From Chiloscyllium plagiosum (taxonomy: Eukaryota), in contig NC_057718.1 of the NCBI RefSeq assembly GCF_004010195.1, positions 50,236,450-50,300,449 of the forward strand: 64,000 bases of DNA. Direction: 5' to 3'. The translations under genes and the position numbers were made by a program. This document shows positions 3,215-61,354 of this stretch, one piece after another (within the stretch, counting starts at the first letter, position 1; the number at the start of each line of letters is the position of its first letter). The notes beneath the pieces were generated by a model, which was not told the origin of the DNA, made no database searches, and saw only the letters and a program-made list of their open reading frames with translations.

Positions 3215-4664
3215 TTTTATTTATTCATGGGATGTCAGTGTTGTTGACAAGACCAGCACTTATTGCCCATTCTGGTGAAGGTAATAGTGAGTTGTCTTTT
3301 TGAACAGCTGCAGTCTTTGGGATTTAGGGAGTGCTTTTATGAAGGGAGTTCCAGGATTTTGAACTCATGACAGTAAGGTGGACAATAATCTGGTTCTAAA
3401 TCAGGGTGCGCATTTTGGAGGGGAAGTTTAGATAGTGGTGTGTTCCTATGCATTTGCTGACCATCATCTTGTAGATGGTAAAGGTCACAGATTGGAAGAT
3501 GCTGTTGAAGGAGTTGGAGTGAGTTCCTGCAGTGCACTGTTTAGATGGCGCATACTGCTGCTGCTTTCTAATAGTAATAATGGGACTGAATGTCAAAGGT
3601 AATGTTCTCTCATAGCTGTGCAGCCGCTCTGAGGGTCTGTGTATGTCAATGTGTACTGACACCATCCTAGTAGTGACATTTGGTTTTGGACATTGATGCT
3701 GCACTTAAACTTCAGAGGTCAGTGCAGAAGAAATGTGGGATCATGGGTTGAAAGGGTGGACTGGGTGTTAATCCAGTAGGCTGCTTTGTCATGGATGGTG
3801 TCAAATTTCTTGTGGTGTTGGAGCTGCACTTATCCAGACAAATGAAAAGCATTCCATCACTATCCTGATCTGTGCATTTTATGTAGATCAGCAAAAGGGA
3901 AAGAGTTAAGATATTTTATCTTAACCTTAGATATGCTCCAGTAGTCACAGTATTTGTATGGCTGGTCAATGGTGTGGGATGTTCAGTGGGATGTTCGTGG
4001 GATGTTCAGTGATGGCAATGCTATTGACTGTCAAGAAGCAGTGGTTAGACTCTTGATAGAGATGGATATTGCCTGACATCTGTAGTACAAATGTTACTTA
4101 CCACTTATCAACCCAAATCATGATATTACTCAGATCTGGCTGCATTTAGACGGACTGCTTCAGCGTCCGATGTGTTGAGTGGTAATGAATGTTGTATAAT
4201 TGTCAGTGATTATCCCCACTTCAAGCCTTTTGGTGAAGGGAAGGTTATTGTTGACGTAGCTAAATTTGATTGAGCTGAGTACACTATAATGAGGGACACC
4301 TGCCCTGATATCTGATTCTCACCCTCTCTCAACAAGAATCATTCTTTGTGCTAGGCATGACACTGACCAGCAGAGATTCCCCTCCCTGACTTCCATTGAC
4401 TTCAGTTTTGCTCAGGTTCCTTGATGCCATTTTTGGTCAAATGTAACCTTGATGAGCTTGGTTGAACTAAAGTTGTCATGACTTCAGTAGCTGAGTGGTC
4501 TTATTGGAATCCCATCTAAGCATCACTGAGTAGGTTCTTCCTTTGCAGGTGGTGCTTGATAACACTATCAATGATCCTTTCAATCACTTTCACGGAGAGT
4601 TAATTAGCTGAGTAGAATTTGTCCTGCTTCATGTACAGGGAATACCTGGCTAATTCTACACATT
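3215..4664 (-). mobile_element. Old L2/CR1-group LINE, resuming at ~7726 after a composite insertion
   Basis: 3' end ttttatttattcatgggatgt...cttattgccca shared with the SINEs at 26455 and 49893; degenerate RT motif near 4190-4220. Confidence 0.7.
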
Positions 4665-4906
4665 CAGAGTCAAAACATGTGGTGCTAGAAATGCACAGCT
4701 GGTCAGGCAGCATCCGATGAGCAGGTGAGTCAACGATTCGAGCATAAGCTCTTCATCAGGAATGAAGTGGGGATAATCACTGACAATTACACAACATTCA
4801 TTACCACTCAGCACATCAGATGCTGAAGCAGTCCCTGTCCAAATGCAGCCAGATCTGAGTAATATCATGATTTGGGTTGATAAGTGGTAAGTAACATTTG
4901 TAATAC

Positions 4907-7579
4907 TCAGTGCTACAGCGGGTGCACAGAGAGGGGAGCCGGAAGGTAAGCGGAGACCAGTTTAAATTAACGTTTTTCTTTTCACAGTCTGTGTTTTTTT
5001 TTCAGCTAGGAGTGGGAACCCAGAAGTTGTCAACAGAGGCTTCTGGGAAGGTAAGAGTTTTGAGTGGAGAAGGACTGCATTCTGGGGAAGGTGGGACCTG
5101 TACAAGCATGATGGGTTGCACCTGAACCAGAATGGCACCAATATCCTGGGAGGTAGGTTTGCTAGCACTCTTCGGGGGGGGTTTAAACTAATTTGGCAGG
5201 AGGATGGGATCCGGACTTGTAGTCCAGCAAGTAGGTTAGCTGTTTTTCAGGATGTCCAAGAATGTAGGGAGGCTGTGGAGAAGGTAGCANNNNNNNNNNN
5301 NNNNNNNNNNNNNNNNNNNNNNNNNNNNNNNNNNNNNNNNNNNNNNNNNNNNNNNNNNNNNNNNNNNNNNNNNNNNNNNNNNNNNNNNNNNNNNNNNNNN
5401 NNNNNNNNNNNNNNNNNNNNNNNNNNNNNNNNNNNNNNNNNNNNNNNNNNNNNNNNNNNNNNNNNNNNNNNNNNNNNNNNNNNNNNNNNNNNNNNNNNNN
5501 NNNNNNNNNNNNNNNNNNNNNNNNNNNNNNNNNNNNNNNNNNNNNNNNNNNNNNNNNNNNNNNNNNNNNNNNNNNNNNNNNNNNNNNNNNNNNNNNNNNN
5601 NNNNNNNNNNNNNNNNNNNNNNNNNNNNNNNNNNNNNNNNNNNNNNNNNNNNNNNNNNNNNNNNNNNNNNNNNNNNNNNNNNNNNNNNNNNNNNNNNNNN
5701 NNNNNNNNNNNNNNNNNNNNNNNNNNNNNNNNNNNNNNNNNNNNNNNNNNNNNNNNNNNNNNNNNNNNNNNNNNNNNNNNNNNNNNNNNNNNNNNNNNNN
5801 NNNNNNNNNNNNNNNNNNNNNNNNNNNNNNNNNNNNNNNNNNNNNNNNNNNNNNNNNNNNNNNNNNNNNNNNNNNNNNNNNNNNNNNNNNNNNNNNNNNN
5901 NNNNNNNNNNNNNNNNNNNNNNNNNNNNNNNNNNNNNNNNNNNNNNNNNNNNNNNNNNNNNNNNNNNNNNNNNNNNNNNNNNNNNNNNNNNNNNNNNNNN
6001 NNNNNNNNNNNNNNNNNNNNNNNNNNNNNNNNNNNNNNNNNNNNNNNNNNNNNNNNNNNNNNNNNNNNNNNNNNNNNNNNNNNNNNNNNNNNNNNNNNNN
6101 NNNNNNNNNNNNNNNNNNNNNNNNNNNNNNNNNNNNNNNNNNNNNNNNNNNNNNNNNNNNNNNNNNNNNNNNNNNNNNNNNNNNNNNNNNNACCGTATTG
6201 TTGAAGAGGAGAGTATGAAACGGACTGGTAAGCTAGAGGAGATACTTGTTAGGAAGGAAGATGTGTTGGGCATTTTGAAAAACTTGAGGATAGACAAGTC
6301 CCCTGGGCCTGACGGGATATATCCTAGGATTATGTGGGAAGCAAGAGAGGAAATTGCAGAACTGTTGGCAATGATCTTTTCGTCTTCACTGTCAATGGGG
6401 GTAGTGCCAGGGGACTGGAGAGTGGCGAATGTTGTGCCCCTGTTCAAAAAAGGGACTAGGAATAACCCCGGGAATTACAGGCCAGTTAGTCTTACTTTGG
6501 GTGGTAGGCAAAGTAATGAAAAGGGTACTGAGGGATAGGATTTATGAGTATCTGGAAAGACACTGCTTGATTAGGGACAGCCAGCACAGATTTGTGAGGG
6601 GTAGTCCTTGCCTTACAAGTCTTATTGAATTCTTTGAGGAGGTGACCAAGCATGTGGATGAGGGTAGAGCAGTGGATGTAGTGTACATGGATTTTAGTAA
6701 GGCACTTGATAAGTTTCCCCATGGTCGGCTTATGCGGAAAGTTAGGAGGCATGGGATAGTGGGAACTTTGGCCAGATTGAAGATTGGTGGAGTTGTGGAT
6801 AGCGAGGAGGGCTGTTGTCAGCTGCAAAGGGACTTAGATATGATGCAGAGCTGGGCTGAGGCGTGGCAGATGGAGTTCAACCCTGTCAAGTGTGAGGTTC
6901 GTCCATTTTGGAAGGACAAATAAGAATGCGGAATACAGGGTTAACGGTAGGGTTCTTAGTAAGGTGGAGGAACAGAGGGATCTTGGGGTCTATGTTCATA
7001 GATCTTTGAAAGTTGCCACTCAGGTGGATAGAGCTTGTAAGAAGGCCTATGGTGTATTAGCGTTCATTAGCAGAGGGATTGAATTCAAGAGGCGTGANNN
7101 NAGTACTGTGTGCAGTTCTGGTCGCCTCATTTTAGGAAAGATGCGGAAGCTTTGGAGAGGGTGCAAAGGAGATTTACCAGGATGTTGCCTAGAATGGAGA
7201 ATAGCTCGTACGAGGATAGGTTGAGAGTGCTAAGCCTTTTCTCATTGGAACGGCGAAGGATGAGGGGTGACTTGATAGAGGTTTATAAGATCAGGAGAAT
7301 AGATAGAGTAGACAGTCAGAGACTTTTCCCCCAGGTACAACAGAGTGTTACAAGGGGACATAAATTTAAGGTGAAGGGTGGAAGATATAGGGGGATGTCA
7401 GGGGTAGGTTCTTTACCCAGAGAGTGGTGGGGGCATGGAATGCGCTGCCTGTTGGAGTGGCAGAGTCAGAATCATTGGTGTCCTTTAAGCGGCAATTGGA
7501 TAGGTACATGGATAGGACAAATGTTTGGCACAACATCGTGGGCAGAAGGGCCTGTTCTGTGCTGTACTGTTCTATGTTC
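4907..7579 (+). mobile_element. CR1 LINE with ORF1 SGNH-esterase remnant and ORF2 RT, internally deleted, spanning the gap
   Basis: LYKHDGLHLNQNGTNILGGRFA (DxxH), KSPGPDGIYPR, NYRPVSLT, VDVVYMDFSKA; TSD taatac at 4901-4906 and 7580-7585. Confidence 0.92.
5290..6191. other. Assembly gap (902 N)
   Basis: Run of N; a 4-N gap also at 7098-7101. Confidence 1.
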
Positions 7580-7604
7580 TAATACAGATGTCAGCTCCTC
7601 ATTC

Positions 7605-7632
7605 CTGATGAAGAGCTTACACTCGAAACATT
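7605..7632 (+). ncRNA. Hammerhead ribozyme core in a PLE tail (decayed cleavage site)
   Basis: CTGATGA-a-gag-cttaca-ctc-GAAAC-att. Confidence 0.65.
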
Positions 7633-10600
7633 CATTCTCCTCTGATGCTGCCTGACCAATTGTGCTTTTCCAGCACCCCACTTTCTGACTCTGATCTCCA
7701 GCATCTGCAGTCTACACTTTCTCACAATTCTACACATTGCTGGATGGATGCCTATGTTGCAGCTGCTCTGCAATAGCTTGTTTATGGGTGCAGCTAGTGC
7801 TGAACCACGAATCTGCAACGCTACTCACAGAACAATGACAGAACTCAGTCCTTGTGGTTGCAGAGTCTTCAACTATTTCTTGTTATCACATGGAGTGAAT
7901 CAAATTGTATGAAAACTGTCATCTGTGGTGTTGGGAAATTCAGAAGGCAGCTGAGATGGATCATCCATTAGCCATTCCTGGTTGAATGCAAATTCTTCAA
8001 CCTCTCTCCTGCACTGTCTTGTTTTCCCCATAGTTCTTTTATTACAGCATAATTTATGGCCATTAATTCTGAAAGGACAGTTTCGTGAGGTGATTTGCAA
8101 CTTGCGACTTGCAAATATCTACCTGTTTTTGCAGATCTAATTTTCCCCTGTTATTTTATTGTGATGGGTTCAAATCTCAACTAAGCCACATTAATGGTAA
8201 TATGTTTCAGTGACTGATTAATTCAGTGGGTTAGGAGAAAGTGACAATGGCAGATGCTGGAGTGGGGTGCTGAAAAAGTGGGATAGTTTGTTTAAAACAC
8301 TAAAATACATTATAATGTACAAAACAGTCATTACAGCAACCATGTGACTTTTGTCTGTGCACACTGTTAACCCAAAGCAGGTGAACTTAGACACAATGTT
8401 ATGTATATGTAGCACATGACATATTTTAAAGGTGAACTGTTTAAAGGCAATGTATGAATACAATGCTATCCTTGTCAACTGCAAGTTCTGAATCATTACC
8501 ACTTGTTGCATGAAAGTGTTATTTTTCTAGCCCCTCTGAATCGCTTGCCCAAAACTTAAGCCTATAGTCCAAACATGATCAGCTATTTTTTTTTCTTGTT
8601 TAGACACTGTTATCTAAATTCTCCATAATTATGACCATCTTTCTATCTGAAGAAGACAACCTCACTTGCTTCAATTAACATTGCAGCTAAAGTCCCTCAT
8701 TGTTGAAAGAATTATGATAAACCTTTTCTATGCCTTGTGACAACTGGGTAGAGAACTTGTGGCCAAAGCAGTGTTTTAAAATGTTTTGACATAATTTCCT
8801 AGTTTTTGCTCTCAACACCACCATTTCCTAATTCTATACATGTTTCCAGTTACTTTCTCAATGTCTTGTCACTTTCAAAGATCTATGCACAGCAGGCTTG
8901 AGGTTCCTCTATCTCCCTGCCTAATATCCCATCTTCCAACTTTTTGTCTATTCTGCAAGTCTCTTCACAAGTCCTGGAGCTCCCAATGTGTGTTATCCTC
9001 ATTGGTTGCTGCACCCAAAGACTGAACTTATCAACAGACTTGAAACAAACATTATCTCTGATCCAATATCCAAATTAGTTATTTACCCAGGAAGCTTCAA
9101 GCACCAACCTTTGGGGGGAAAAAAAAACACTTCTACCACCTTTTAAAGCAAAGCAGCCATTCACTAAACTTGTTTTTTTTTCTGTCCTTAAGCCAAATAA
9201 TTTCTCCAAACTAAAACTGGCTATTTTATTCCATACACATTTTTTTTTTTGTTTAAGTGCATTTTATTGGGTACTTCAAACTCTTTTGATTTCAGTTTCC
9301 TTTTTATTTTTCTTACATATCAATCTTTTGATGCTGAAGATCAGTGTCATGTGTGTTTGTTGCTATCTGAGGCTGTAACCTAAATGTTCTGTTTAGAATA
9401 ATTCTGTTCATCAAATCTCATCAGGATGAAACACATGCTATTTTCCAAAGCACTTTCTGGGCAGGGGAGAGGTAGGACCTATTCTCAGACAACTACAGCA
9501 AGAATTAATTGAACGCTTCCTCATCTGAAAGGTGACAAACATTTGTAAAACAAAGGATATACTGCAGATATTGGAAAATGCTTCCACACTGATTCCAAAG
9601 ATCTGCTCAATACAATAAATGTTTGTCTCCTAGAGGTTAATAAATACCAGGTAAAGTATGTTATTTCAACCCTTAATTTAATGCAAATGCTGTTTTTTTT
9701 TTAAAAAATCTGCATATCTAACATGCAGAATTAAGAAATGAATAATCGTGGCTAGATTCTTTTTATGATAGTGGAGAGAGGGAAAGCAGGACAGACTAAT
9801 TGGACTAGTGGTGCAGTTTCTACTGCTGGCTGGCCAGTTTATCTCTGGTAAGTATCATTAACATTCATCAGTCAGAGGCAGGAACAAAAGATCACAGCAG
9901 TATTTTCAGCTGATGCCATCTTTAAAGTATTGCCACTTTACCACTGGTCAGAGGTTGGAGAAGAGGTTAGCAGCCATGGGAATAATGTTCAGAGAACATG
10001 GCTGCAATACCACAAGCCTGTCACTACATCATTCTGCTTCAAATGGAGCAGTATACCAATACAAATTGTTAACATATATGTTTAGTTCTTCAAATGGAAG
10101 TTGTGCCTTACCAATTCAGGCTCAAGTCAGTCAGACAGGCATCCCTTATAATAGGGACCACCATCATCAGTGCTAGTTACTGAACTTCAGTCTTAAAGAC
10201 AATCAAGGTCTTTCCCCAATTAGAGAGTCAAGAAAAGAGGTATCCTTTTATGAATAGGACATAAGTGTTTAAGTTGTATTTGTAAAGAGATAGAAAATAA
10301 GATATATATAAATTGTATGAAATTTTTTAAGGCTAATATATTCATTAAGGAGGGAGGGGTATAATGGCATTCACTTGTGATTATTTTATATACATGTACA
10401 TGCCAGAATAAATTGGTTTTAGTTGTACTGACTTTCCATGTGCAGCACAATGTTCTAGTCTGTCTGCAAAGAAATTCCAATTCTGATCACTATGGAAGAA
10501 CTAGCAGGACAACCTGGTGAGCTCAACGGTGAAGCAGGTGTGTGGGTAAGGATGTCAGAGCTTGGACAAATATGAGAAATGGTCTATCCCTGTTCTTCCA

Positions 10601-11260
10601 ATATATGCATATCATTCTGAAATTGGCTGTGACGAGGAGGCTATTTGGAAAAACAAAAGCTTTCATTCCTTCAGTGTTTTCCATAGAAGAAGCTAACTGC
10701 AAAAGCACAGAGTTTTAATCTCTAGGGATCACTGTCCACTTCTGAGGAGACTGCCTCAGAGGGTGCAGTGTCAAATCCTTGCCCGCATCTTCTGCCAGTA
10801 CAGATATTATTTACTTTGGTGTAGATCTGTACTGAGATTCAAGGTTGCAACCTGGTAACAATACACCAGCCATGAAAAGCTCTGCTGCCAAGGCTGATGG
10901 CATGCAGGGAGTGGAAGCCTGATCCAGGCTATGCCACAAGACTACAAGAGAACAAGGTTTGGACATTGCATTATTTAATGATGTATATTATCTCCTTAGC
11001 ATATCACTGTATATTGTCTCCTGAACATATGACTATGTCAGACTTAACCCTTACACTACAGTGTCATGTATCTAGAGGTCTCTGGTAAGCCAGTAAATAT
11101 GAGCAATTTATTGTGAAGGACATGAAGATCTGGAGTTTCAGATATTATCTGTGCCTTAGCTCAGGTAGAACAGGTATCCAGGAAAGTCATGAGTGATGCT
11201 CTTTTCTGCCCTCCTCTGAATGCCACCTCCACCAGTAAGACTGGTGACTGTTCAGGAGAG

Positions 11261-11466
11261 GCAAAAGTGAGGTCTGCAAATGCTGGAGATCAGAGTCAAG
11301 ATTAGAATGATGCTGGAAAAGCACAGCAGGTCAGGCAGCATCCAAGGAGCAGGAAAATCGATGTTTCGGGCAGGAGCCCTTCATTGGGAATCCTCATGAA
11401 ACATTGATTTTCCTGCTCCTCGGATGCTGTCTGACCTGCTGTGCTTTTCCAGCACCACTCTAATCT
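11261..11466. mobile_element. Palindromic PLE-tail insertion
   Basis: Inverted arms (gctggaaaagcacagcaggtcaggcagcatcc / ggatgctgtctgacctgctgtgcttttccagc); 16-bp TSD tgactgttcaggagag at 11245-11260 and 11467-11482. Confidence 0.9.
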
Positions 11467-13477
11467 TGACTGTTCAGGAGAGTCAGGTCAAGTAAACCAG
11501 TTATGAATGCTGGCTGGAAGTTCTCCCAGTCCTGCATGCCACTGCTTTGTCACCAGCTCAGACAACAGCCTCCAGATGAGAGGCATTGCAGTTTGCTTGG
11601 AATTTTCATAAAGTCGCCATTCATCTCCGGTCAGCAGGGATGTGAAAATTAACCTTGCAAGGGAGGAGGAGTGGCTGCTGAAGAAGGTATCAGTCACCAT
11701 CTTGATGCAGTAATATGAGGCTCTGGGAGCTGCCACACTCACTTCCAGTGGGGCCCCAGAAACGAACTGGAGCCATAGAGGAAAAAAAAAGGTCCAAGCG
11801 ATCTGGCATCAGGTGATCACCAAAGCCACTGGAACTCATCTACCATCCCAGCACAAAGCTCTGCAATGCTCTTTCATGAGGTACAGTCTTTAACAATGCC
11901 CCTCTGACTATAATTAGTTCATGCTCAGCCAGCATTCCCTTGCTACTGAGTGCCACCTTCTTTTGTACTGGTGCCTATTTGTGCTCCCCTCTCTAGCCTT
12001 GACTCATCCAAAGGTTTCTCTCTCTTCTTGCAGTTCGACATGGGATTTGCTGCTGTGTAGATGATTTCAACTCCGACCTCCTTCCTCTTAGTTTCTCTTC
12101 ACTGATGAACCCAGCTCCAGACTACATGACGTTAATGGTATTTTAGGCATTCCGTCTATAGAGTTAATTGCCTGTCAATCTCTAATCTGTCCATCCCACT
12201 TGCTTCACCTGCAGCTTTCAATTGACCCTCTTCAAGACTGTCAGATCCAAAGTTGCAAAATATCAGCCAACAACTGAATGAGACAAAATCTGATCAAGCG
12301 TTTGGCTGAGACCAGAAAGTCATTGCAAAGCTTTAGGGTATGAAAAGTAATCGGAGATCTTATTCCTCTAGATTTACACATTTTGCTTGTAAAGATGTTC
12401 TGCAGAATGATACACCTTTGTTCTTCACTTGTAATCTTGCAAGAACTATGGGTCACACTTCTATAGTAAAGCCTTGAACTATGTTTCTCTCCAACTTCAA
12501 GTCCAGACTGAGCCACAAACAGCTTGTATTTGTTATGTGAAATCACTCTTACTATCCCTTTACAGCCTAAAATGGAAAGAAAAATAGAAATGGAGGAACA
12601 GCATGCAGTGTGGCCGAAGTAAAAACATGGACGTACCCCAGAATAGGAACTGTCCATGTAAACTTTCTGTGCTGATGTCAAACTTCAGCCCGCAGGTTTC
12701 CTGTCCTTCCAAATTGAGTATTATTCCCCTGACCACCTAAATACCATTTGGCCAGTAATGGAAACACTGTTGGGTACAATTGTTAGAAATGATGGGATTG
12801 TGTGCAAGGAGCTTAGAGATACATTTTTAAAACCATTTTAATTTCACTCTGATTTCTTACTTCCTCTCCTTTTGCTAATAAGTCTTCTCTCCCTCTGTTA
12901 ATTTACTAAAGGAACTAATTCTTTATGGATAACTCTGAAGTTAAGGTGCTTTCTAGCAGCATGGGCACCTCCATTATGGGGACTTATTTCGATAACTAGG
13001 TAACTAATGAGGCGGAAATAGAAGAGTTTGTTGATGAGATGAAGAAAAGTGAAGTTTGTGCAGATCAAAAACGTGATTATAGACTATTTAGGTCAAATGA
13101 TCTACTGTGTTACAAATATCACATAATAAAGCAATGGTGCCATTATGGTACAGAAAAAGGTCATTTAGTGTACCAATTGTACACCTGTTCAATGTAGAAC
13201 AATCAAATCAAACACCTTTCTCTGATCTCTATTATTGTAAATGTATTTTGCTCAATTGCCGATCCAATTTTATTTTATGAACATTTTTTAAATTCCTGCT
13301 TCCATCATCCTCAGTTGTCATCTTGCTCTGTAAAAAGGATTTTTTATACATACTCCCACCGTCATTCCAACCCCCCCCACCCCGGCCATGTTATAGACCT
13401 TTACAATATCACCCCTCAGTCTCCTATGCTCCAGGGAGCACTTTATTTACTAGAATGTCCAGGTGACATTCTAGTAA

Positions 13478-23215: not shown

Positions 23216-23536
23216 GATTAGATTAGATTACTTACAGTGTGGAAACAGACCCATCGGCCCAACAAGTCCATACCGACCCATCGAAGCGCAACTCACCCAG
23301 ACCCATTCCCCTACATTTACCCCTTCATCTAACGCTACAGGTAATTTAGCATGGCCAATTCACCTAACCTGCACATTTTTGGATTGTGGGAGGAAACTGG
23401 AGCACCCGGAAGAAACCCACGCAGACACGGGGAGAATGTGCAAACTCTACACAGACAGTCGCTTGAGGCGCCAAATGAACCCGGGTCTCTGGCGCCGTGA
23501 GGCAGCAGTGCTAATCACTGTGCCACCGTGCCGCCC
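23216..23536 (-). mobile_element. Full-length HE1-type tRNA SINE
   Basis: 5' gggcggcacggtggcacagtg (A box), ggttcatttgg B-box region, core tttgcacattctccccgtgtctgcgtgggtttc, (TAATC)n tail. Confidence 0.93.
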
Positions 23537-24206
23537 ACATATCTTACACATAATTGATCACATTCTTCAAAATATCATTTTCAAATATTGTTCCACTTGT
23601 CAATTATTTGGCTCAATTCAATTCCTGAACTAATCTCAGAATTTGAACCTTTGGATTATTTGAAGACCTCAGAAAAACTCTGAAGCTTTCAAGGACCTTG
23701 TGAAAGTGCTTCTGTGATAATCCATCCCAAAAGCAATCATTTACTTATCAGTAATTGTCAATATCGCAATCTAGCAGGGTTGTATTCATTTCTTTAACAG
23801 GTTTTACATAATTTTCTTTTCATTTCAATTATAGTAGAATGAGCCTTAAAGTAAATTTACTCATCATTTTTAGCTAAGATTCCATGACTTCAATAAAGAT
23901 AAGAATAGCTTCAGAACTGTGTGTAATTACACATTTGCCAGCATTGTTTTGGCAATGAACATGTTGAGTATTCTAACCATTATAATACAAGTTGCTTTCA
24001 TGCAGTCATAGTGGTTTAGAAATGGAAATTTACACCATTAAATCTTTGTTTTCATTTTTATGGAGAACATATGTTACATTGAAATTTTATAGAAACAAAG
24101 GATATTATGTTACAGAATGTAACATCACTCCCTGACTCATCTCACCAATATTAAATCACCATGATACCCATTTGGTCACACTTGATCAATTATGCGTAAT
24201 TTATGT

Positions 24207-24400
24207 GGGCAGCACGGTGGCACAGTGGTTAGCACTGCTGCCTCACGGTGCCAGAGACCCAGGTTAAATTCCCGCTTCAGGTGACTGTCTGTGTGGAGTT
24301 TGCACATTCCTGATGAAGGGCTTTTGCCCGAAACATCGATTTTACTGCTCCTCGGATGCTGCCTGAACTACTGTGCTTTTCCAGCACCACTCTAATCTAA
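24207..24400 (+). mobile_element. Chimeric element: HE1 tRNA head fused to a hammerhead-bearing PLE tail
   Basis: HE1 to tttgcacattc, then ctgatgaagggcttttgcccgaaacatcgat...ccagcaccactctaatctaa; acacttgatca repeated at 24178-24188 and 24401-24411. Confidence 0.85.
24310..24340 (+). ncRNA. Hammerhead ribozyme core
   Basis: CTGATGA-a-gggc-tttt-gccc-GAAAC-atcgat; perfect stem II. Confidence 0.75.
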
Positions 24401-24619
24401 ACACTTGATCACACTCCCCTGCTCTTTCCCAACTCTTTTAAAAGATCTTCTTCAAATATTATATTATTTTAGAAAACTATTGTGGACACTGTTTCTTGTA
24501 TTATTTGCCATGCAATCTTCTGTATCAGAAAAGCTCTCCAAAATTTTACCTTTCTGACAATGGTTTTAAACTTAGCAAAATCAGATTGAAGGTTTGGGGG
24601 AAGCAAAGTACAATTAGAT

Positions 24620-25510: not shown

Positions 25511-26454
25511 CGGGGCTGGATAATGCATGTTCCTGCTGGGTGGGTTTTGGGTGGGGGTGAGAATGTAATATATGGAGAGTGGAGTGCTTATCATCTTCCC
25601 ACCCATCCATGAGCTCATTCCCACAACACAGAGACAGGCAGCTTATCTACCATATGTAAAGTGTCAACTGAATTAATTGAAAGCTTAATTGAATTCGATA
25701 ATATGGTTGGTGTGGATACTTGCATGGTAGCAGGATTCACACTTTCCGAAGTAAATAAAATAGCAAATAGAAAAGTGGGGTTTATCAATGGACATTGCCC
25801 CTTTCCCACTGAGACCACCAATCAAAAAGATAGCTCACCTTCCTTACTTCTGACTCACATATTCTTTAGATACCCCATTACCTTTCATGAGTTGCCAAAA
25901 TAAAAGATGGTGATAGTTGCTGGATTATCCTGATTATTCATTGTCAAGGTTTTCCCACTATATTTGCCCTCTATTGCAGTTTATTTTAAATTTTGCAGGC
26001 AGAGTAACAAACAAATTCCCAAAACATTGCATACACTGATTGATTACATACATGCTTGTTACGTTCCTGAGTCCAGAGAATGCTCCACTTGGAATGATGC
26101 TCAGACTGGTGTATTTAAATATCCTGGATTTGGAAGAAAAAAGAAACTATTAGTAACACAATAAAGATATTGGATGTTTTAATTCATTCAAAATCCGTAG
26201 TTATAATGACAATGAATGAGTGCCCGTGTATGGACAGGAGAGAGATTTCCACCATGGAATCCTGGGTCAACTTATTTCCACAGTCACTGGAGATGCCTTT
26301 GGCAGAAATCTGAGATTCAGCTAAGCCCAAAAGACTTGGAGAAATGTAATTACTGCCACAGCCAGAGCTCCAGAGTCATTTAGAAGTAAAATTGATGCTC
26401 ATAGTTGAAGAGGTCATGAAATCTCAAAATGTTTGAGAGACTCTCATTCAGAAA

Positions 26455-27343: not shown

Positions 27344-27869
27344 ATACAAGTGAAAATTACTTTCCAGGATGTTCTTATCATCTGATAGCCTCACACTGTC
27401 ACTGAGCATTATGACAATGATGTATTTGCAGAAGCAGAACTAAACTAGAATGAGTTATAAGTTTTTTAAAAGGATTGTTCAGATGTTTGGTCTTTTTACA
27501 TGGTGCTCTATCGTACTCTGCTTGCACAATTTAATTAATTCTGATCATTTTTTACATACTATCAATTTTAAAATTCAGAATGCACCTCAAATATTCTTCT
27601 CACCTTATTATCATTCAAAAATATTTTAGAAAAATAAATGAGCTATTTGGTCTCGACCCTGCTCCATCATTCAATAAGTTCATGGCTGATCTAATTGCCT
27701 TAACTCCATTGTCTTGCCTATTTTGTCCACTGTACTTCTGTATTTTGTCACACTTTTCGAAGTAAATAAAATAGCAAGTAGAAAAGTGGGGTTTATCAAA
27801 GGTCATAGCACCTTGGTCATACAAGGTTCACATACTTGCCATGCCTATTCTTCATTCTCACAGGAACGT

Positions 27870-28480: not shown

Positions 28481-29139
28481 TTCCCTTTCAACTTATTGGG
28501 GTTATTTTTATAAATCAAACCTCTTTCATCTTCTTGTGCCCTTTCGTTCCCTGTCGAATTTTAGGGATTTTTAAAAACCATTTGCTGATTCCCTCAGTTT
28601 CCCAGTCTCTGTTGACTGCTCTGGACCCTCAGGACAAAAGACCTAAAACCTACTAAGTCATTATGCAATGATAGGTTGAACTCCTGCAATGGTTTGCCTA
28701 TCACTGCTAATTCATTTTGCATATAAATTTAATTAAGGATACCTTTAAAGTATTTGTGAGTAAGGCCTTTCATCAATACTGTGATCATTGTTGTGCATTC
28801 AAGTTGCATTTCTTCAACTTTTAACATTTGTAGTTATTGGAGATTCCAGTGTCCTTGAGGATGGTTATGAATTTTTCTCATGCCTGGGATACAAAGGTGT
28901 TATTTCTCCTTTGTTCAATAAGTCCTGGTTGGCTTCCTGGTTTCACCCTGCTACACCTAGCATAGTTTCACTTGCTCTCATGGTTACAACACTGCCTTGA
29001 TTGCAGGTCCTTCTATTTGTTATCGGATCCCTGTCTACGTTGAGTGAGGGATCTATGAAGAAATTTGCAGTCACCTGCTGGGATGGCTGCTTCTCCGGTT
29101 TTTGAAACACTTTGTCACTTTACAAAGCTGTACAGGAGG

Positions 29140-29347
29140 TAGAAAGTGATGACTGCAGATGCTGGAGATCAGAGTCGAAGAGTGTGGGTGCTGGAAAAGC
29201 ACAGCAGTTCAGGCAGCAATTGATGTTTTGGGCATAGACCATTCATGAGGAAAGGTCTCCTGATGCAAGCCTTATGCCCGAAATGTCGATTCTCCTGCTC
29301 CTCAGATGCTGCCTGGCCTGCTGTACTTTTCCAGCACCACACTCTCA
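29140..29347. mobile_element. Palindromic PLE-tail insertion
   Basis: Inverted arms; 16-bp TSD aaagct(g/a)tacaggagg at 29124-29139 and 29348-29363. Confidence 0.88.
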
Positions 29348-30346
29348 AAAGCTATACAGGAGGCAGTTTTTGAACTGGCCTAATATTACTTCTCTCAACA
29401 CTTTTGTAATTGTGGTTAATTTTGTATGATCATTCCTGATAGTTTAATGAGAGTTGCTGAACGTTATGAATTCATGAAAAGCTAGAACAAACTTTTCTGC
29501 AGAAGCTGCTAAATCTCTTGTGGTATGATTCTGAACCAACGTTAATCATTAATGTAAAAAAGTTTGATCGTTCATAGTTTAGAATTAGACTTAGAATATC
29601 CTTCATTGTCAAATGTACTCAAGTGAGTCTGACTGCCTGCACTAGACCCCAATCCAATAACCATTCTGCTCTGCTCCAAACCTCCAGGGTGCTTCACACT
29701 GGTTCTCAGCTGCTCCAAGATAAGTTTTCACTGGGACTTGCTCCCTGTGCCGGCCTCTACCTGGGATTCACTCCCAGTTTGAGGAGCTCTCTTCAGGCAA
29801 TGTGGAGTAAATTTCATGGGTTCTTCCTGTAAGGTGACCCTGTATTAGGTGAATTCAAATTTCTTCAGGCCACTTTAACTCATCTGCAATTTCTCAAAGG
29901 ATATGAAGAAGTCATCTTCTTCAAATTTGGGTACAAACTGAGAAGAGTATAAAATAAAACCAAAACTTGTGTTTGGAGTAGTACTTCACCCATGTTCATT
30001 CAAATAGTAACTTTCTAGAGACTTGAGATAGTTCTGAGTTCATGCAGAAATTGTAAAAGTCACTTGACACTCAATAGACATGCAAACAGGCTTTGAATGT
30101 TTGATTTCAATATTTTTTTTAAAAGGCAGTTCCAGAAAACCCTGTAATGAATACAGTTCATGCCTAAGTTATGAATTTGATACATCTTTACTGGGCATGA
30201 CAAAATCTTTTCATAAACACTGCATATTTACAACAAGTGAAGTGCTTTTCCTGAAGTACAGTTACTACTGAAATATAGGAAACACAGAAATTGATTTGTG
30301 CACAGCAAGCTTCCACAAAACAGTATTATGAAAATCTTTTTTTTAA

Positions 30347-34060: not shown

Positions 34061-34307
34061 TCCCAACAATGGGAATGAGTTAGGGTTGTCAACTGTTGCA
34101 GAATGTCGAGGAGTCCCTTAGAATCGGTCTCAAATGAAACATTCTCAAGAGTTTGTCAGTTCAAGACAACAGCGACCAGGACTATGCCAGCCAATCATAG
34201 CCCATTTCTGTATCATCTAGCCCTCTAGATGACTAAGAATGATTGCTGCATAGTGGCAGCTCATAATTGTTTACCACCTAACCTTCTCTATATCAGAGAG
34301 TGACGGA

Positions 34308-34437
34308 GAGAACGTGAGATCTGCAGATGCTGGAAATCAGAGTTGAAAAGTGTGGCATTGGAAAAGCACGGCTGGTCAGGCAGCATCCGAGGAGTAAGAA
34401 AGTCGACATTTCAGGCATAAGCCCTTCATCAGGAATG
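34308..34437 (-). mobile_element. PLE tail with hammerhead core
   Basis: Reverse complement attcCTGATGAagggcttatgcctGAAATgtcga. Confidence 0.85.
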
Positions 34438-34983
34438 TGATGGATGATCAGAGTGTGGCTGTCAGCCAATCACAAATGGTGGTCAAATAACAATTGAATT
34501 TCCTTATGTCAGGAATCTATTCCTCACCCACAGGAATACCTACACAGGTTCAGTGTAGGCAAAGGCGTCTTAATGAAAACATCTAAACAGCTTACAGAAC
34601 ATGTGATCAGTACTCCAATAACTTCAGGTGATGGAAGGAAAGGGTGCTGATTCTTAGCCAAGGTTAGACTCTGGCTAAGACTGTCCAGAAGCTGGTATAG
34701 TAATTAATTAGTGTTATCAATGTTATTAATTTGCCTAAATTTCAGCAGGCAGGTTTTGGTGCTCTGTGGATTCCTATCTTCTATAAGCAATTGACAGAGG
34801 AAGCAATTATTCAGGGCTAATAGTGAAATTTAGTGAAAGCAGGTTCATTCCCGATCACTCAATGTCATACAGAATTATTAGGCTCAACAACGCTATGCTA
34901 GTTATATTCCCTTTCTCCTTTATCTCAGCTTTAAACATTCCATATATTTTTCTACACTCTTTTCTCTAGTTACATGCACTCAC

Positions 34984-44622: not shown

Positions 44623-44954
44623 CTGTCAAATATTTTTGTATTGAGTCATCATTTTAAAAGAAAAATCCATCAATAAACAGGCAATATTGCATCAAAACAT
44701 AATTTAAATAACAGATCTTAAAAGGATCAATCCTTACTGATTTCTAAAATTTTCCTAAAATCCCAAAGATGAGGTGAAAGATCAGTAGATCACAAAATGT
44801 TTTTTTTCTTGAAAGAGATAATGAGGAAAGACTAATCATGAACAAAAATCAGCAAATTTGAGGTTCAGGCATGTGTTGGTGTGCAAAAAGGTAACAATTC
44901 TTAACGAGAAAATACTACCTTGAAATTAAATTAATGCTAGTCATTCTAAAAATA

Positions 44955-45018
44955 GTCGATTTTGCCTGTCCTCGGATGCTGCCTGAATTGCTGTGCTCTT
45001 CCAGCACCACTGATCCAG
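44955..45018 (+). mobile_element. Short PLE-tail fragment
   Basis: gtcgat...ctcggatgctgcctgaa...ccagcaccac; 12-bp TSD attctaaaaata at 44943-44954 and 45019-45030. Confidence 0.8.
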
Positions 45019-45180
45019 ATTCTAAAAATAAATGCTTGCGCTTTGTAGAAATAACTTAAAATTATGCTTGCAATGGTAAAACTTTTACATTTAAATTGGC
45101 CTGCATGTAACATAATTTAGAAACAGACATAAAACAAGTTTAATTTCCTGCAAGTAACTTAAGATTGAATGGGAAGCTGA

Positions 45181-48113: not shown

Positions 48114-48399
48114 GATTAGATTAGATTACTTACAGTGTGGAAACAGGTCCTTCAGCCCAACAAAGTTGAAACTTTATTGCTGGAACAGCACAGCAGGTCA
48201 GGCAGCATCCAGGGAACAGGAGCATGGCCAATTCACCTAACCTGCACATTTTTGGAGTGTGGGAGGAAACCAGAGCACCCAGAGGAAACCCACACAGACA
48301 CTGGGAGAATATGCAAACTCCACACAGAGAGTTGCCTGAGTTGGGAATTGAACCCAGGTCTCTGGCGCTGTGAGGCAGCAGTGCTAACCACTGCCACCC
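48114..48399 (-). mobile_element. HE1-type SINE whose middle is replaced by a PLE-tail fragment
   Basis: 48164-48220 is PLE sequence (gctggaacagcacagcaggtcaggcagcatcc) in place of ~80 nt of HE1. Confidence 0.85.
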
Positions 48400-48862
48400 A
48401 CAAAAGTAGTGCCTTCAAAATTTAAATTGGTCACGTGCAGCTCCAAACATGGGAAGAAATGCTACAGTTTTATTCCACAGTCCAGAGCTGGAATTGTTAA
48501 GGGCATTGAAATCATTGATATATTTTTATTTCCATTGATTCAACTAAGTCCGCCTTCTTAAATTGTGCGTCAAGCTATTTCCTCTCAGAAGTTTTTTTTT
48601 GTTATGTGAGTAGTGGTGCGTGCAATGATCCCATTTTTTCACCCCATACAGAAGGTGTGTTCCTTATTCTCACGTGACAAATTTTCACAGAAACCTTCAA
48701 ATCACTAAGCAAGTGATGATTGATATAAGATTGATACACTGTGATCTAATCTAATAAATGATTTAACACATGACTGACGACGTGTGCACTGCGGATTACT
48801 TTGATGGTCAAGCAACTCCTTCAGTTTGTAGAATAGAATTGAATGTGGAGAATTATTCATAC

Positions 48863-49316: not shown

Positions 49317-49892
49317 CTTTTGTGACTTCAGTGGAATAAAACTGTAGTATTTCTTCCCATGTTTGGAGCTGCACGTGACCAATTTAAATTTTGAAGGCAC
49401 TACTTTGTCAATATCTGCAATTTTTATGCAAGGGAGTTGTTATGCATACATATACACAGGTTAGTGTTTAATTATGATTAATTTTCTTTGGTGAACCACT
49501 GAGTATGGTGATTTTGTCATGCACACAAATTAACATGGGAAAGGTCATGTTTACGATCGTAAAATGTATAAAAAGCAATATTAATAATGGCAACTTGTAT
49601 TGTTATCAGTGCAAAAACACATTTTCCCATTGTTTAGCTATACAAACAACATACTGTCTTGTACTAAGAATAAAAATGTGACACTGTTACACCAGTCACA
49701 TGATAATTTTATATATTCCTGTTGCTGTCATATTTTGTGCATTTGCACTTGTTTTAAATGATTTCTAATGTGAACAATGGAAGAAAATGCAGTTTCAAAG
49801 ATAGAATGTAAAGGTAGAAATTCCTGGTTGCAAATAAATTGGGAGGGGATCATGCAATGCAAATGTTGATGTCAAAGGTATTTGCACGAGCT

Positions 49893-50234
49893 TTTTTAAA
49901 AATTTATTAACAGGATGAGGGCATCACTGGGTAGGCCAGCATTGCTTGCCCATCCCTAACTGCCCTGACGGCAGTTAAGAGTTAACCATATTGTTGTACA
50001 CCTGGAGTCACACTTAGGCTAGACCTGGTACACTGGCCCTTTTCTTCCCTAAAAGGCATGAGTGAACCAGATGACTTTTTCCCCCAAAATCATCATCAAT
50101 CATTATCATGACTCTTAAATCCAGATACTTAATGAATTCAAATTCCACCATCTGCCATGGCAGGATTCGAACCCGGGTCCCCAGAACATTACCTGGTCTC
50201 TGGATTAACAATCCAGGCATAACACCACATGACC
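49893..50234 (-). mobile_element. tRNA-derived SINE, second family
   Basis: B box ggttcgaatcc on -; paralogous to 26455-26780. Confidence 0.8.
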
Positions 50235-50951
50235 ATAACAAGAAATGTTGGAGACTCACACATGGCCTTGGCCTCCCCTGATGAGGGCATTATTCACTTT
50301 GTTCAGATCATGCTGAGGGAATATTCAAAGCCAGAGACATGGTTGCAGGAAATAAACATTAGCCTGCAATCCGTTATAATAATACCAGAATAAAAATTAA
50401 TGCTCAGAAGAAGAGTCACTGGACCCAAAAGATTAACTGTGCTTTCTCCACAGATGCTACACATAATTTTAGGCAGAAGATAAGCTGAAACTTGATAAAT
50501 GGTAAATAGGTTTATTACATAATAGCCAACTCCACCATATTTTGAGAAATATGATGGTTTTCTATGAGATATATGACATATGTAAGTGCATCTCACTGTT
50601 AGCTATATTCCCTGAGCACAAGATCAGCAACTTTGGGAAACCCTGCAAATATGAGTAAACATTTATTATTAAAACCTTTCAGCTCCTCTCAGGAACAGTC
50701 TTTTATTTCCTGATGAGCAGATCAGCTCATGATGTCAGTGAACCCTTTCAGGTATTAACTGTCATAAACAACAGTGTTCTTTTTAAAGTTGCTCAGCCAT
50801 ACCAGGAAATGCAACAAGGAATTATAGAACCATACGAATGTCAAGTAACTCCCATTGTAACCCTGAAGATAGTTTTGCTTTGCTTTGCTGAGCAATTAGT
50901 GAGCAAAAGCCAGAGGTCAGGGATAAAAGCCTTTGGTCAGTGATGACAGAA

Positions 50952-59452: not shown

Positions 59453-61354
59453 GTTTTCATCAGATTAGAATAATTGTCTTAGCAAAGACAAAGGACAATT
59501 TGGGAGGTGGACTGGCCGACATTCAGCTCATAATGTGGAAAGTTGTCCTTACTCAGGCCACATCAAACAGCTGACTAATTATTTCCAAGAATCTCACACC
59601 ACAGCTCACATGACATAACGCAGAAAATTGCCTTTAATGTCAGCTGATCATTTACTCATGCCTGCCTGACAAATATTTAAAATATAATTTGAAAAGGTGC
59701 AGAATCCCAGGATGAGTAGGTTCCAGTTGATATTCCTGGTCAGTCCTTAGGGAAGCTAATGATGTATTCAACCCCAGAAATTTCAGAGCCACTAGATCCT
59801 ATGTCTGTCTCCATAACAACAGCATTCACATATGACAACTTAATACGTTCAAGATCTTCTGGCAGTATTTAAAGCAGAACATAGATTTCTCCTAGTATCA
59901 GGGCCAAGATTCCTCCCCCAAGCAATGCTATCAAAATTGTCATTCATATCATTACTGTTGTGAGATTTTGCTGTATGGCTGCAGCTTTTGCTAACTCATA
60001 AGTGATTGTATTAAAATTCACTGTCAATGAAACATTTTGGGATGTTACAAAGAGTTGCAATAAGGTAATATATAAATGCAAGTTCTCCCTGCTTTAAAAT
60101 TTCCTCAGCGCACAGTCGGCACAGAAAGCTTTTTATAGTGTCAAGCAATTAACTTTCTCATTATTTGCTTCATAAGAGGCAGGCTGCTTCTTTGCAGGTG
60201 CACATATTTTTCCCAGCCTCACTGACGTGCGGTCAAATAATGTCTGCTGCATTCCATGTGCTTGAGCAAACAATTTGTGTCTGTTTATGCTTTCTCTTTG
60301 CATTAGTTACAGCCAAAGCGAAATTCAGTAAAACAAAACCCGATAAACAAGAATATATTCATTCATTTCCATTGTTTTCCTTTTTTTGCAAATCTTTCTA
60401 ACATCAAATATAACGGAAACTGAAAATTGACAAATTCCATCTTGCTATTACTGCTTTCAGAGAGTTATTAATCAAAAATATGGGCTGGAAATTGCATTCT
60501 GCCTCCCCCTCCCAGCCCCAGATCCTGGAGCCAGAATGGCAGACAGGAGCAGGGTGTACGATTTTGCAGTATGGCAAGAGAGTGTGCCCATTCACAAGAA
60601 CTCCATTAATATGGGAGGCATTGAATTGATTATTCATCCATTGGTCAATTAAGTGTGTATCAGGGCTTCCTCCTGTTGCCATTAGGATTTTGCTTGTGAC
60701 TGGGGAGGCTAACACAAAGTAGCCAGGCTATCCTTCAAAAGTGAAAATAATGGACGGGGTAGAGGAATGCTCAATGGAAGACTGCATTCATTTACATAAG
60801 GTATACGTTTCAGTCTGGAAGAAAGTGCCATGAAAATCAAGAAGACGAAAATAAAACATTTTGGAATGTTAATTCTTTAGAATGCAACCAGATTCTTCAA
60901 GTGTATTAAACATAGTGTATGTTTTTCCCTTTAAACGAGGAAACATTAATCTAATTACTATCTTAATTAAATGGTGATCATTAAAAATCCAACCAATTTA
61001 CCAATATTCTGCCCCGACATTCAGCTCCTCATGTGGAAAGTGTCCTTACCCAGGCCACCCCAAACAGCTGACTAATCACTTCCAAACACCTGGTCTGGCA
61101 TTGGGGATTGCTCTTGAGTTACTGTTCTGGGTCCTCCTGATCAAAGGCTATATTCTTTGATTTGACCGAGGACTGCTAATCATCATGACAAGCTTCTTGA
61201 CTTTGTGCTTGTGCTTAACAGCTGCTCATCACAGAGTATGGCAGCAGCCAGCAGTCAGACCATGTGAAGGTCCCCTGTGTTGGTCTGCTGCAGACAGCCC
61301 TCCGAGAGAGAACTGTGATAGTAATGTTGCGAACAGTTGTAGCTCAGGTTGATG

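What the first reader, a model, noticed from the sequence alone, without database searches (positions are those of the whole stretch)
4073..7738. Palindromic PLE insertion that captured an inverted copy of its own flank
Seen: TSD aattctacacatt, PLE tail (-), a ~150-bp inverted copy of 4073-4223 (at 4763-4902, continuing at ~7583-7594), PLE tail (+), TSD. A CR1 with its own taatac TSD later landed inside the copy. The copy carries the private mutations of this particular old LINE (5 substitutions and a 2-bp indel over the first 140 bp), so its template was DNA ~430-580 bp away. Inference: synthesis during PLE integration switched templates from PLE to local genomic DNA and back, giving a snapshot of how the hairpin insertions form.
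Basis: partly seen in the sequence, partly recalled or inferred. Interest (0 to 1): 0.72.

Follow-up and report, generated by a model that had tools for sequence, protein, structure and literature searches.

The report
Neighbouring DNA copied into Penelope insertion
Where two stubs of a Penelope-type jumping gene meet head to head, the genome holds a reversed 150-base copy of DNA from about half a kilobase away, most likely made when a loose DNA end folded back on its own strand while the insertion was being sealed, a repair slip already described for other jumping genes.

Summary
Real. A 13-bp TSD brackets two outward-facing PLE-tail stubs; between them lies an inverted copy of 4073-4222 (6 substitutions and one indel in 151 bp), later split by a CR1 with a 6-bp TSD. 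Copy and source share two frameshifts and a stop against family proteins. Contigs of two related species bridge four of six joints, so misassembly is unlikely. Best reading: both target nicks primed PLE cDNA; the left cDNA end folded back about 540 nt onto its own strand, copied 150 nt, and was joined to the right cDNA. A second case in this window (24178-24411) shows the same geometry with 6- and 5-nt microhomologies. Against: the arms differ by 17%, copy and source by 4% (p=0.001), so later repair at the palindrome centre stays open. The spacer records end joining, not how the mirror arm is made. The same outcome is described for L1, R2 and yeast breaks; my searches found no report for PLEs. 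The scan noted three similar cases on other DNA of this genome (unchecked).

The parts
4073..4223 (-). Source segment: part of the RT region of an old, dead LINE (minus strand); older boundary probably 4222
   Evidence: tblastn/frameshift alignment to RVT_1 proteins P0002, P0003; single-copy 100% contigs in organism A, orthologous contigs in B and C
4652..4664 (+). Left copy of the 13-bp target site duplication
   Evidence: only two occurrences in the window; host LINE frame runs on across the site when the insert is left out (P0008 and P0012)
4664..4765 (-). Left arm: PLE 3'-end stub without the tail; 5' end just ahead of a minimal-hammerhead-like core
   Evidence: ten such stubs in the window; very high depth; PLE label rests on motif and structure, no ORF present
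4764..4906 (+). Inverted copy of the source, first part (4222 to 4082); 4764-4765 shared with the arm (2-nt microhomology, 3 nt in this genome's present sequence); 4901-4906 is also the CR1 TSD
   Evidence: bridged to the arm in organism C (record 27) and to the CR1 in organism B (record 20)
4907..7585 (+). Later CR1-type LINE with 6-bp TSD (second copy 7580-7585); holds N gaps 5290-6191 and 7098-7101
   Evidence: RT matches at 6260-6896, family 3' microsatellite ends at 7581 (loose ends); present in B, probably absent in C (record 27 leaves the stretch at 4900 with 52 letters over); the name CR1 is recalled
7586..7594 (+). Inverted copy of the source, last 9 nt (4081 to 4073), exact
   Evidence: (I15); not bridged by a listed contig
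7595..7598 (.). Four unassigned bases at the copy/right-arm joint: untemplated, or PLE sequence ahead of the shared arm start
   Evidence: no match to the source continuation; one paralogous contig aligns from 7596 (table 5c), a weak hint
7599..7725 (+). Right arm: PLE 3'-end stub with the ~30-nt tail; starts at the same element position as the left arm; family match ends at 7723
   Evidence: 760-845 loose ends at 7723 in three runs; bridged to the right flank in B and C (records 24, 32)
7726..7738 (+). Right copy of the 13-bp TSD, identical to the left
24178..24411 (+). Second, independent case: 11-bp TSD, inverted copy of 23434-23560 (SINE head plus 20 nt of unique flank), one PLE stub, TSD
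   Evidence: 112 of 127 identical; flank 17 of 20, not shared by 6 other SINE heads; microhomology 6 nt at the TSD end, 5 nt at the PLE joint

Best explanation
One event at integration. The PLE enzyme cut both strands 13 nt apart and each 3' end primed reverse transcription on PLE RNA, one at the tail end, one at the internal start about 30 nt upstream; both cDNAs stopped just ahead of the hammerhead core. Before the two cDNA ends were joined, the left end was single-stranded for at least 590 nt of host DNA (resection), its 3' tip folded back on its own strand at 4221-4222 through 2-3 matching bases, a polymerase (host end-joining polymerase such as Pol theta, or the PLE RT) copied 150 nt away from the break, let go, and the new end was joined to the right cDNA. 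A CR1 later landed in the copy. Shown: the anatomy, the local origin, presence in three species, the order CR1-last. Inferred: two-ended priming (by analogy with the Anolis enzyme), resection, fold-back direction, timing. Not known: the polymerase.
For: Arm polarity and TSD fit priming from both nicks; the purified Anolis PLE cuts and extends both strands and starts at two sites that bound the tail (PMC11167929, parts 1-2 read); both arm ends here match family-wide ends (loose ends at 4678 and 7723). Both TSD 3' ends read ATT, the motif that enzyme cut most, though 0 of 6 other window insertions have it at both ends. The copy sits exactly at the arm joint, inverted, from the side whose top strand leads into it. 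Second case 24178-24411: one arm only, copy starts on the last 6 nt of the TSD, loop about 620 nt, 5-nt overlap with the PLE end; no palindrome existed there to break later. 2 of 5 non-palindromic pairs within 2 kb lie at PLE joints. TSD clock: focal TSD 13 of 13 identical, chance 0.47-0.59 at 4-6% divergence against 0.09 at 17%; three palindromes together P=0.03 at 17%. Arms also differ by 13% and 22% in the two palindromes without spacer. Same outcome described at L1 ends (10.1101/2024.12.14.628481, passages) and R2 ends (PMC11371274, passages).
Against: Arms differ at 16 of 96 sites (14 of 90 outside CpG columns), copy and source at 6 of 151: Fisher p=0.001 and 0.003. The arms share 4 departures from the window majority, so they are of one subfamily; if identical at birth they are about three to four times older than the copy. 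The TSD test is weak: over all 7 insertions P=0.18 at 17%, and 5% divergence is itself at the edge (only 2% of simulated sums fall as low); it assumes TSD lengths of 11-19. Microhomology at the priming end is only 2-3 nt, none is seen at the other. A third inverted local copy (48403-48478, 1 mismatch in 76) abuts a SINE that is about 10% from its relatives, and two direct pairs lie at no element end, so such copies also arise without PLE integration. Fold-back loops reported for L1 inverted duplications are small hairpins, in yeast 41 nt, not 540 nt.
Confidence: 0.62

Rival explanations
1. Two steps. An ordinary PLE palindrome inserted first; much later a break at its centre (hairpin or cruciform tip) was patched by the same fold-back templated insertion. 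PLE enzymes played no part in the capture.
For: Arm-arm 16 of 96 against copy-source 6 of 151, p=0.001; 95% ranges 10-26% and 1.5-8.4%; arms of one subfamily; a young local inverted copy beside an older SINE at 48403-48478.
Against: Needs a perfect 13-bp TSD at 17% (chance 0.09) and a break in the few bases between arms already some 10% apart; does not explain the one-armed case at 24178-24411; organism C already has arm and copy joined.
Confidence: 0.2
2. One step, but by the PLE reverse transcriptase jumping templates: from PLE RNA onto a local transcript (or invading the intact left duplex from the right cDNA end) and then on to the other end. This is the literal form of the first reader's idea.
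For: L1 insertions built from two RNAs and from template switches are described (PMC11702581, passages); template jumps were proposed for rotifer Penelope inserts (PMC3846280, passages); short microhomology suits RT jumping (own knowledge).
Against: In the second case the copy starts from the host TSD end on a 6-nt match, with no cDNA end to switch from; both PLE cases take the inverted orientation and side that fold-back predicts, while RNA or duplex invasion would allow others; no microhomology at the right joint for invasion from that end. No transcript data were examined.
Confidence: 0.13
3. Single-strand snap-back: one cDNA (right arm) copied the local segment and then its own strand to make the left arm, so the spacer would mark how the mirror arm is made (self-priming model).
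For: Geometry allows it: the left arm is the shorter. Self-priming was proposed for Penelope palindromes (PMC3846280); cDNA snap-back is seen for R2.
Against: Predicts arms identical at birth and as close as copy and source; they are not (p=0.001). The short end coincides with ends of one-armed insertions that have their own TSD (24305, 44969), so it is a priming site.
Confidence: 0.03
4. Artefact or distant origin: misassembly beside the N gap, or a fragment from another copy of the LINE family.
For: A 902-N gap lies 380 nt away; no listed contig spans the stretch or the joints at 7580-7599; no whole genome was available for a search; summed depth over 4773-4911 (4261 in X1 against about 20 for one copy) shows that some paralogous pieces reach 85% there.
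Against: Copy and source differ at 7 places and each has its own contigs of single-copy depth; four joints are bridged in other species; at 4157-4168 only the locus's own contig was laid in each of 4 runs at 85%; two shared frameshifts and a stop; the two family proteins agree with each other at only 22 of 46 residues, source and copy at 49 of 52.
Confidence: 0.02

Closest known systems
Inverted duplication of local DNA at L1 insertion ends (Mendez-Dorantes et al., 10.1101/2024.12.14.628481 and PMC11702581; passages read, supplements not seen)
   Same: Resected 3' end self-anneals by about 2 nt, primes synthesis, inverted local copy joined to the cDNA end, TSD kept; the earlier version counts three insertions with sequence templated from DNA near the site.
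   Different: There: L1, human cells, the host (reciprocal) end, small hairpins. Here: PLE, germ line, fixed in three species, the folding end already carries cDNA, loop about 540 nt (620 nt in the second case).
Snap-back 5' junctions of R2-protein insertions (PMC11371274; passages read)
   Same: cDNA 3' end primes further DNA synthesis on cDNA or, less often, nearby target DNA before the junction forms.
   Different: Engineered, one cDNA end, fixed rDNA target; here two cDNA ends meet.
Local foldback inversions at yeast double-strand breaks (PMC11724301; abstract and section 15 read)
   Same: Resection, hairpin, synthesis, release, end joining; inserts from 10 to over 150 bp.
   Different: 10-bp imperfect microhomology, 41-nt loop, most inserts 5-34 bp, no retroelement.
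EN+ Penelope-like element insertions with inverted 5'-truncated copy, one-sided tail and minimal hammerhead (PMC3846280, PMC8557442, PMC4209133 passages; PMC11167929 parts 1-2)
   Same: Head-to-head arms, TSD, 30-nt tail on one side, hammerhead-like core; rotifer copies hold host DNA between terminal repeats.
   Different: In the passages read the captured rotifer DNA is not traced to the insertion's own flank; here no ORF is present and the filler is an inverted copy from under 600 nt away.

Membership tests
EN+ Penelope-like element insertion | ORF with PLE-type RT and GIY-YIG endonuclease | not testable with these tools
   Only 100-130 nt stubs are present; no genome held.
EN+ Penelope-like element insertion | Inverted 5'-truncated copy, TSD around the whole unit | tested here: met
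   Arms 4664-4765 (-) and 7599-7725 (+), 13-bp TSD.
EN+ Penelope-like element insertion | 30-40 nt tail at one end only | tested here: met
   Right arm runs about 30 nt beyond the left; same in the 11.2k and 29.1k palindromes.
EN+ Penelope-like element insertion | Minimal hammerhead motif in the terminal repeat | tested here: inconclusive
   Core CTGATGA in 4 of 10 stubs, followed by GAAA in 3 of those 4 (right arm yes, left arm mutated), stem II with a paired double change in both arms; Rfam gave no hammerhead match to E=10.
Local templated (fold-back) inverted insertion at a DNA end | Insert is an inverted copy of DNA near the same break end | tested here: met
   145 of 151 identical, 430-580 nt from the TSD, shared lesions.
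Local templated (fold-back) inverted insertion at a DNA end | Microhomology at the priming junction | tested here: inconclusive
   2-3 nt at 4763-4765 (5-6 of 8 with mismatches, I2), near chance; 6 nt in the second case.
Local templated (fold-back) inverted insertion at a DNA end | Dependence on resection and a host polymerase | not testable with these tools
   Needs cell experiments.
Co-integration product (formed with the PLE insertion) | Spacer, arms and TSD of one age | tested here: inconclusive
   TSD and spacer clocks agree; arm clock is older.
CR1-type LINE (4907-7585) | RT domain, 3' microsatellite, short TSD | tested here: met
   tblastn to RT proteins, weak RVT_1 E 0.07, repeat tail, 6-bp TSD; clade name recalled, no tree built.

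The most novel reading that the evidence does not exclude
PLE integration in this lineage regularly passes through an open double-strand break whose two ends are primed on different RNA molecules and lie resected for 0.5-1.3 kb before joining; a sizeable share of insertions (2 of 7 in this window) therefore carry an inverted copy of their own flank. The many insertions of this family would then be a fossil record of germ-line resection and fold-back lengths, and a test between two-ended priming and self-priming for PLE inverted repeats.
Probability: 0.35. Interest if true: 0.62.

Novelty: new variant of a known kind. Interest (0 to 1): 0.42.

Why it matters
How PLEs make their inverted structures is called undefined in PMC8557442, and the steps after priming are called unvalidated in PMC11167929. 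A filler copied from the insertion's own flank shows that the central joint is a true end-joining step with a long single-stranded end, and arms that differ more than their TSD would mean two RNA templates. One locus cannot settle this; the value is a countable signature (side, orientation, distance, age) in a genome rich in such stubs. The locus also gives nested markers: capture before the A/C split, CR1 probably after it.

Tried and rejected
No whole genome is held, so the genome-wide best-hit test stays undone; the window blastn, the 85% lay of four runs and two family proteins stand in for it. Rfam: 2 chance matches, no hammerhead; free-energy folds of three stubs gave stem II but not a full hammerhead. 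Pfam on the source translation: no family; on three CR1 pieces: one weak RVT_1. Centres of the 11.2k and 29.1k palindromes and the 34.3k 5' filler: longest local exact matches 8-10 nt, chance level. CpG decay does not explain the arm difference (14 of 90 outside CpG columns). Gene conversion between copy and source as the cause of their closeness: unlikely, since species-specific changes in the source are not in the copy and the closer arms were not homogenised; conversion before the species split is not excluded. Joint table: only 15 of 783 rows shown, all from paralogues; the CR1-less joint in organism C is inferred from record 27 (264 long, 212 laid), not seen; 155 'other letter' rows hidden, so four of the six substitutions could not be polarised. 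In organism C no 2-nt insertion is listed at 4151 (5 indel rows hidden). For the second case the SINE part alone is closer to a distant copy (8 differences, 55426) than to the local one (12); the local origin rests on the 20-nt flank, and I had no reads for it. ATT at both TSD ends is not general. Scan look-ups by words and near gave nothing. Host gene and its direction were not determined. Six paper searches gave no report of local inverted fillers in PLE insertions; the library lacks most subscription journals, and supplementary figures S9-S10 of the L1 preprint were not seen.
Full report
Observation. The structure is in the sequence as described. A 13-mer occurs twice in the 64 kb, at 4652-4664 and 7726-7738. 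Inside it lie a stub on the minus strand (4664-4765) and one on the plus strand (7599-7725) of a repeat with ten stubs in the window. Both begin at the same element position, just ahead of a CTGATGA core; the right one runs about 30 nt further at its 3' end. Between them, 4763-4906 and 7586-7594 form an inverted copy of 4073-4223 with six substitutions and one 2-nt indel, interrupted by a 2.7-kb CR1-type element with a 6-bp TSD. Four bases (7595-7598) are unassigned. Rfam found no hammerhead.

Local origin. The host is a dead LINE on the minus strand: its translation finds 15 proteins at E up to 0.001, of which the three scanned carry RVT_1, and two of them align across the insertion site when the insert is left out. 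Against P0003, source and copy give the same residue at 49 of 52 positions and share 26 departures, among them two frameshifts and a stop; against P0002, 37 of 41 and 20. The two proteins agree with each other at only 22 of 46, so family members are far apart while source and copy are 96% alike. No other copy of the segment is in the window. In four runs laid at 85% likeness (84-100% of each read), only the locus's own contig covers 4157-4168, although some paralogous pieces do reach 85% elsewhere on source and copy. A genome-wide search was not possible.

Not a misassembly. Organism A contigs match 3800-4115, 4118-4425, 4396-4693 and 4740-4870 without a difference, each at depth about 20; they overlap the first two joints by only 29 and 25 letters, and this run may be related to the assembly. 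In organisms B and C, listed contigs bridge TSD/left arm (records 10, 26), left arm/copy (27), copy/CR1 (20) and right arm/TSD (24, 32) by 31 letters or more; the two joints at 7580-7599 are not bridged by a listed record. Record 27 of organism C leaves the stretch at 4900 with 52 letters over, which is what a CR1-less allele ending 33 nt into the right arm would give; the second piece is not listed, so this is inference. By my arithmetic on table 8, A differs from B at 49 of 1239 sites (4.0%) and from C at 80 of 1412 (5.7%, range 4.5-7.0). B's source has the two extra bases and the copy's base at 4168, and another base at 4223, so the source was once closer to the copy and the older microhomology at the arm/copy joint is 2 nt.

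Mechanism of the arms. The polarity is what two 3' overhangs give if each primes reverse transcription. The purified Anolis PLE cuts and extends both strands, prefers ATT, and starts at two sites that bound the tail (PMC11167929). Both TSD 3' ends here read ATT, but none of six other window insertions shows that at both ends. Both arm ends match family-wide ends (table 7), and short ends also occur in one-armed insertions with their own TSD. A snap-back origin of the left arm, as in the self-priming idea of PMC3846280, is geometrically possible but predicts arms as alike as copy and source.

Mechanism of the spacer. The top strand runs source, 430 nt, TSD, left arm, reverse complement of source. 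That is the product of the left end folding back on its own strand and copying away from the break, which needs at least 590 nt of host DNA single-stranded. The copy includes 20 nt of flank beyond the SINE head (17 of 20 identical, binomial 5e-7; absent from six other SINE heads), starts on the last 6 nt of the TSD and overlaps the PLE start by 5 nt. Its SINE part alone is closer to a distant copy (8 against 12 differences), as expected if the local SINE was near its master at the time. There the host end primed, with no cDNA to switch from and no palindrome to break. Of 30 self-matches of 50 nt or more and 84% or more, five non-palindromic pairs lie within 2 kb: two at PLE joints, one at a SINE 5' end (48403-48478, 1 mismatch in 76, no clear TSD), two direct pairs at no element end. 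Leaving out the focal case, one of four at a PLE joint has a chance of roughly 0.004 (hand estimate, 7 joints of 10 nt in 64 kb). So 2 of 7 PLE insertions here carry such a copy, but the process is not confined to PLEs.

The weak point is age. The arms differ at 16 of 96 sites, copy and source at 6 of 151 (p=0.001; 0.003 without CpG columns). The arms share four departures from the window majority, two of them a paired change in stem II, so they are of one subfamily. Either they came from different, already diverged RNAs, or the palindrome is older and the spacer a later patch. The TSD favours the first by about five to one (0.47-0.59 against 0.09). The other two palindromes also have arms 13% and 22% apart with near-perfect TSD cores; simulation gives P=0.03 for the three at 17%, but P=0.18 for all seven insertions, and depends on assumed TSD lengths. 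I put capture at integration by fold-back at 0.62, later repair at 0.20, RT jumping to local RNA or duplex at 0.13, snap-back at 0.03, artefact or distant source at 0.02.

Comparison. Inverted duplications of local DNA at L1 ends, with TSD kept and 2-nt priming, are described from human cells and cancers; snap-back onto nearby target DNA for R2 protein; foldback insertions at yeast breaks. Head-to-head PLE arms, tail, hammerhead and host DNA between PLE repeats are described. Six searches gave no report that joins the two, within a library that lacks most subscription journals; I read passages or named sections only, and no supplements. The scan has noted three similar captures on other DNA of this genome (85 nt from 0.7 kb, 143 nt from 1.3 kb, 236 nt from 1 kb) and one later repair patch in an old PLE; these are unchecked notes and are not counted as support.

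Verdict. Real, well preserved, a new variant of a known kind: it works like fold-back templated insertion at retroelement ends, here between two PLE cDNAs and over a long loop. It shows how the centre was sealed, not how the mirror arm arises. Interest 0.42; 0.62 if a genome-wide count shows a regular, co-integrational signature (probability 0.35).

Noticed in passing
window 24178-24411 (source 23434-23560): One-armed PLE insertion with 11-bp TSD whose 5' filler is a 127-nt inverted copy of a SINE head plus unique flank 620 nt upstream; 6-nt and 5-nt microhomologies. A cleaner example of fold-back capture than the focal one; not checked in reads.
   Followed up: yes
window 48403-48478 and 49331-49406: 76-nt inverted pair, 1 mismatch, 853 nt apart; one copy abuts the 5' end of a SINE (48114-48402) that is about 10% from its relatives and holds a PLE stub in place of about 80 nt. 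No clear TSD.
   Followed up: partly
window 25737-25803 / 27748-27814 and 59516-59588 / 61014-61085: Two direct local duplications of unique-looking DNA (67 nt 91%, 73 nt 89%), 1.9 and 1.4 kb apart, not at element ends.
   Followed up: partly
window 11245-11485 and 29124-29366: Two more head-to-head PLE stubs with 16-19 bp TSDs, tail on the left arm, arms 13% and 22% apart, no captured spacer.
   Followed up: yes
window 4907-5289: The CR1 5' part seems to jump from a 5' end straight to an open frame at 5041-5289 that I recall as the end of a CR1 ORF1 esterase (no Pfam match); suggests an internal deletion. The first 2 nt of its right TSD also fit the family tail.
   Followed up: partly
window 34292-34459 and 44943-45030: One-armed PLE stubs with TSDs (about 12-13 bp with 2 mismatches; 12 bp exact); the first has a short filler with no local match.
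   Followed up: partly
window 3974-4011: Short tandem of three 11-12 nt units in the host LINE; organisms B and C have indels here, so it expanded or shrank after the split.
   Followed up: no
window 50151-50241 (-): ARAGORN calls a 91-nt tRNA-Asn-like sequence; probably a SINE or pseudogene, not examined.
   Followed up: no
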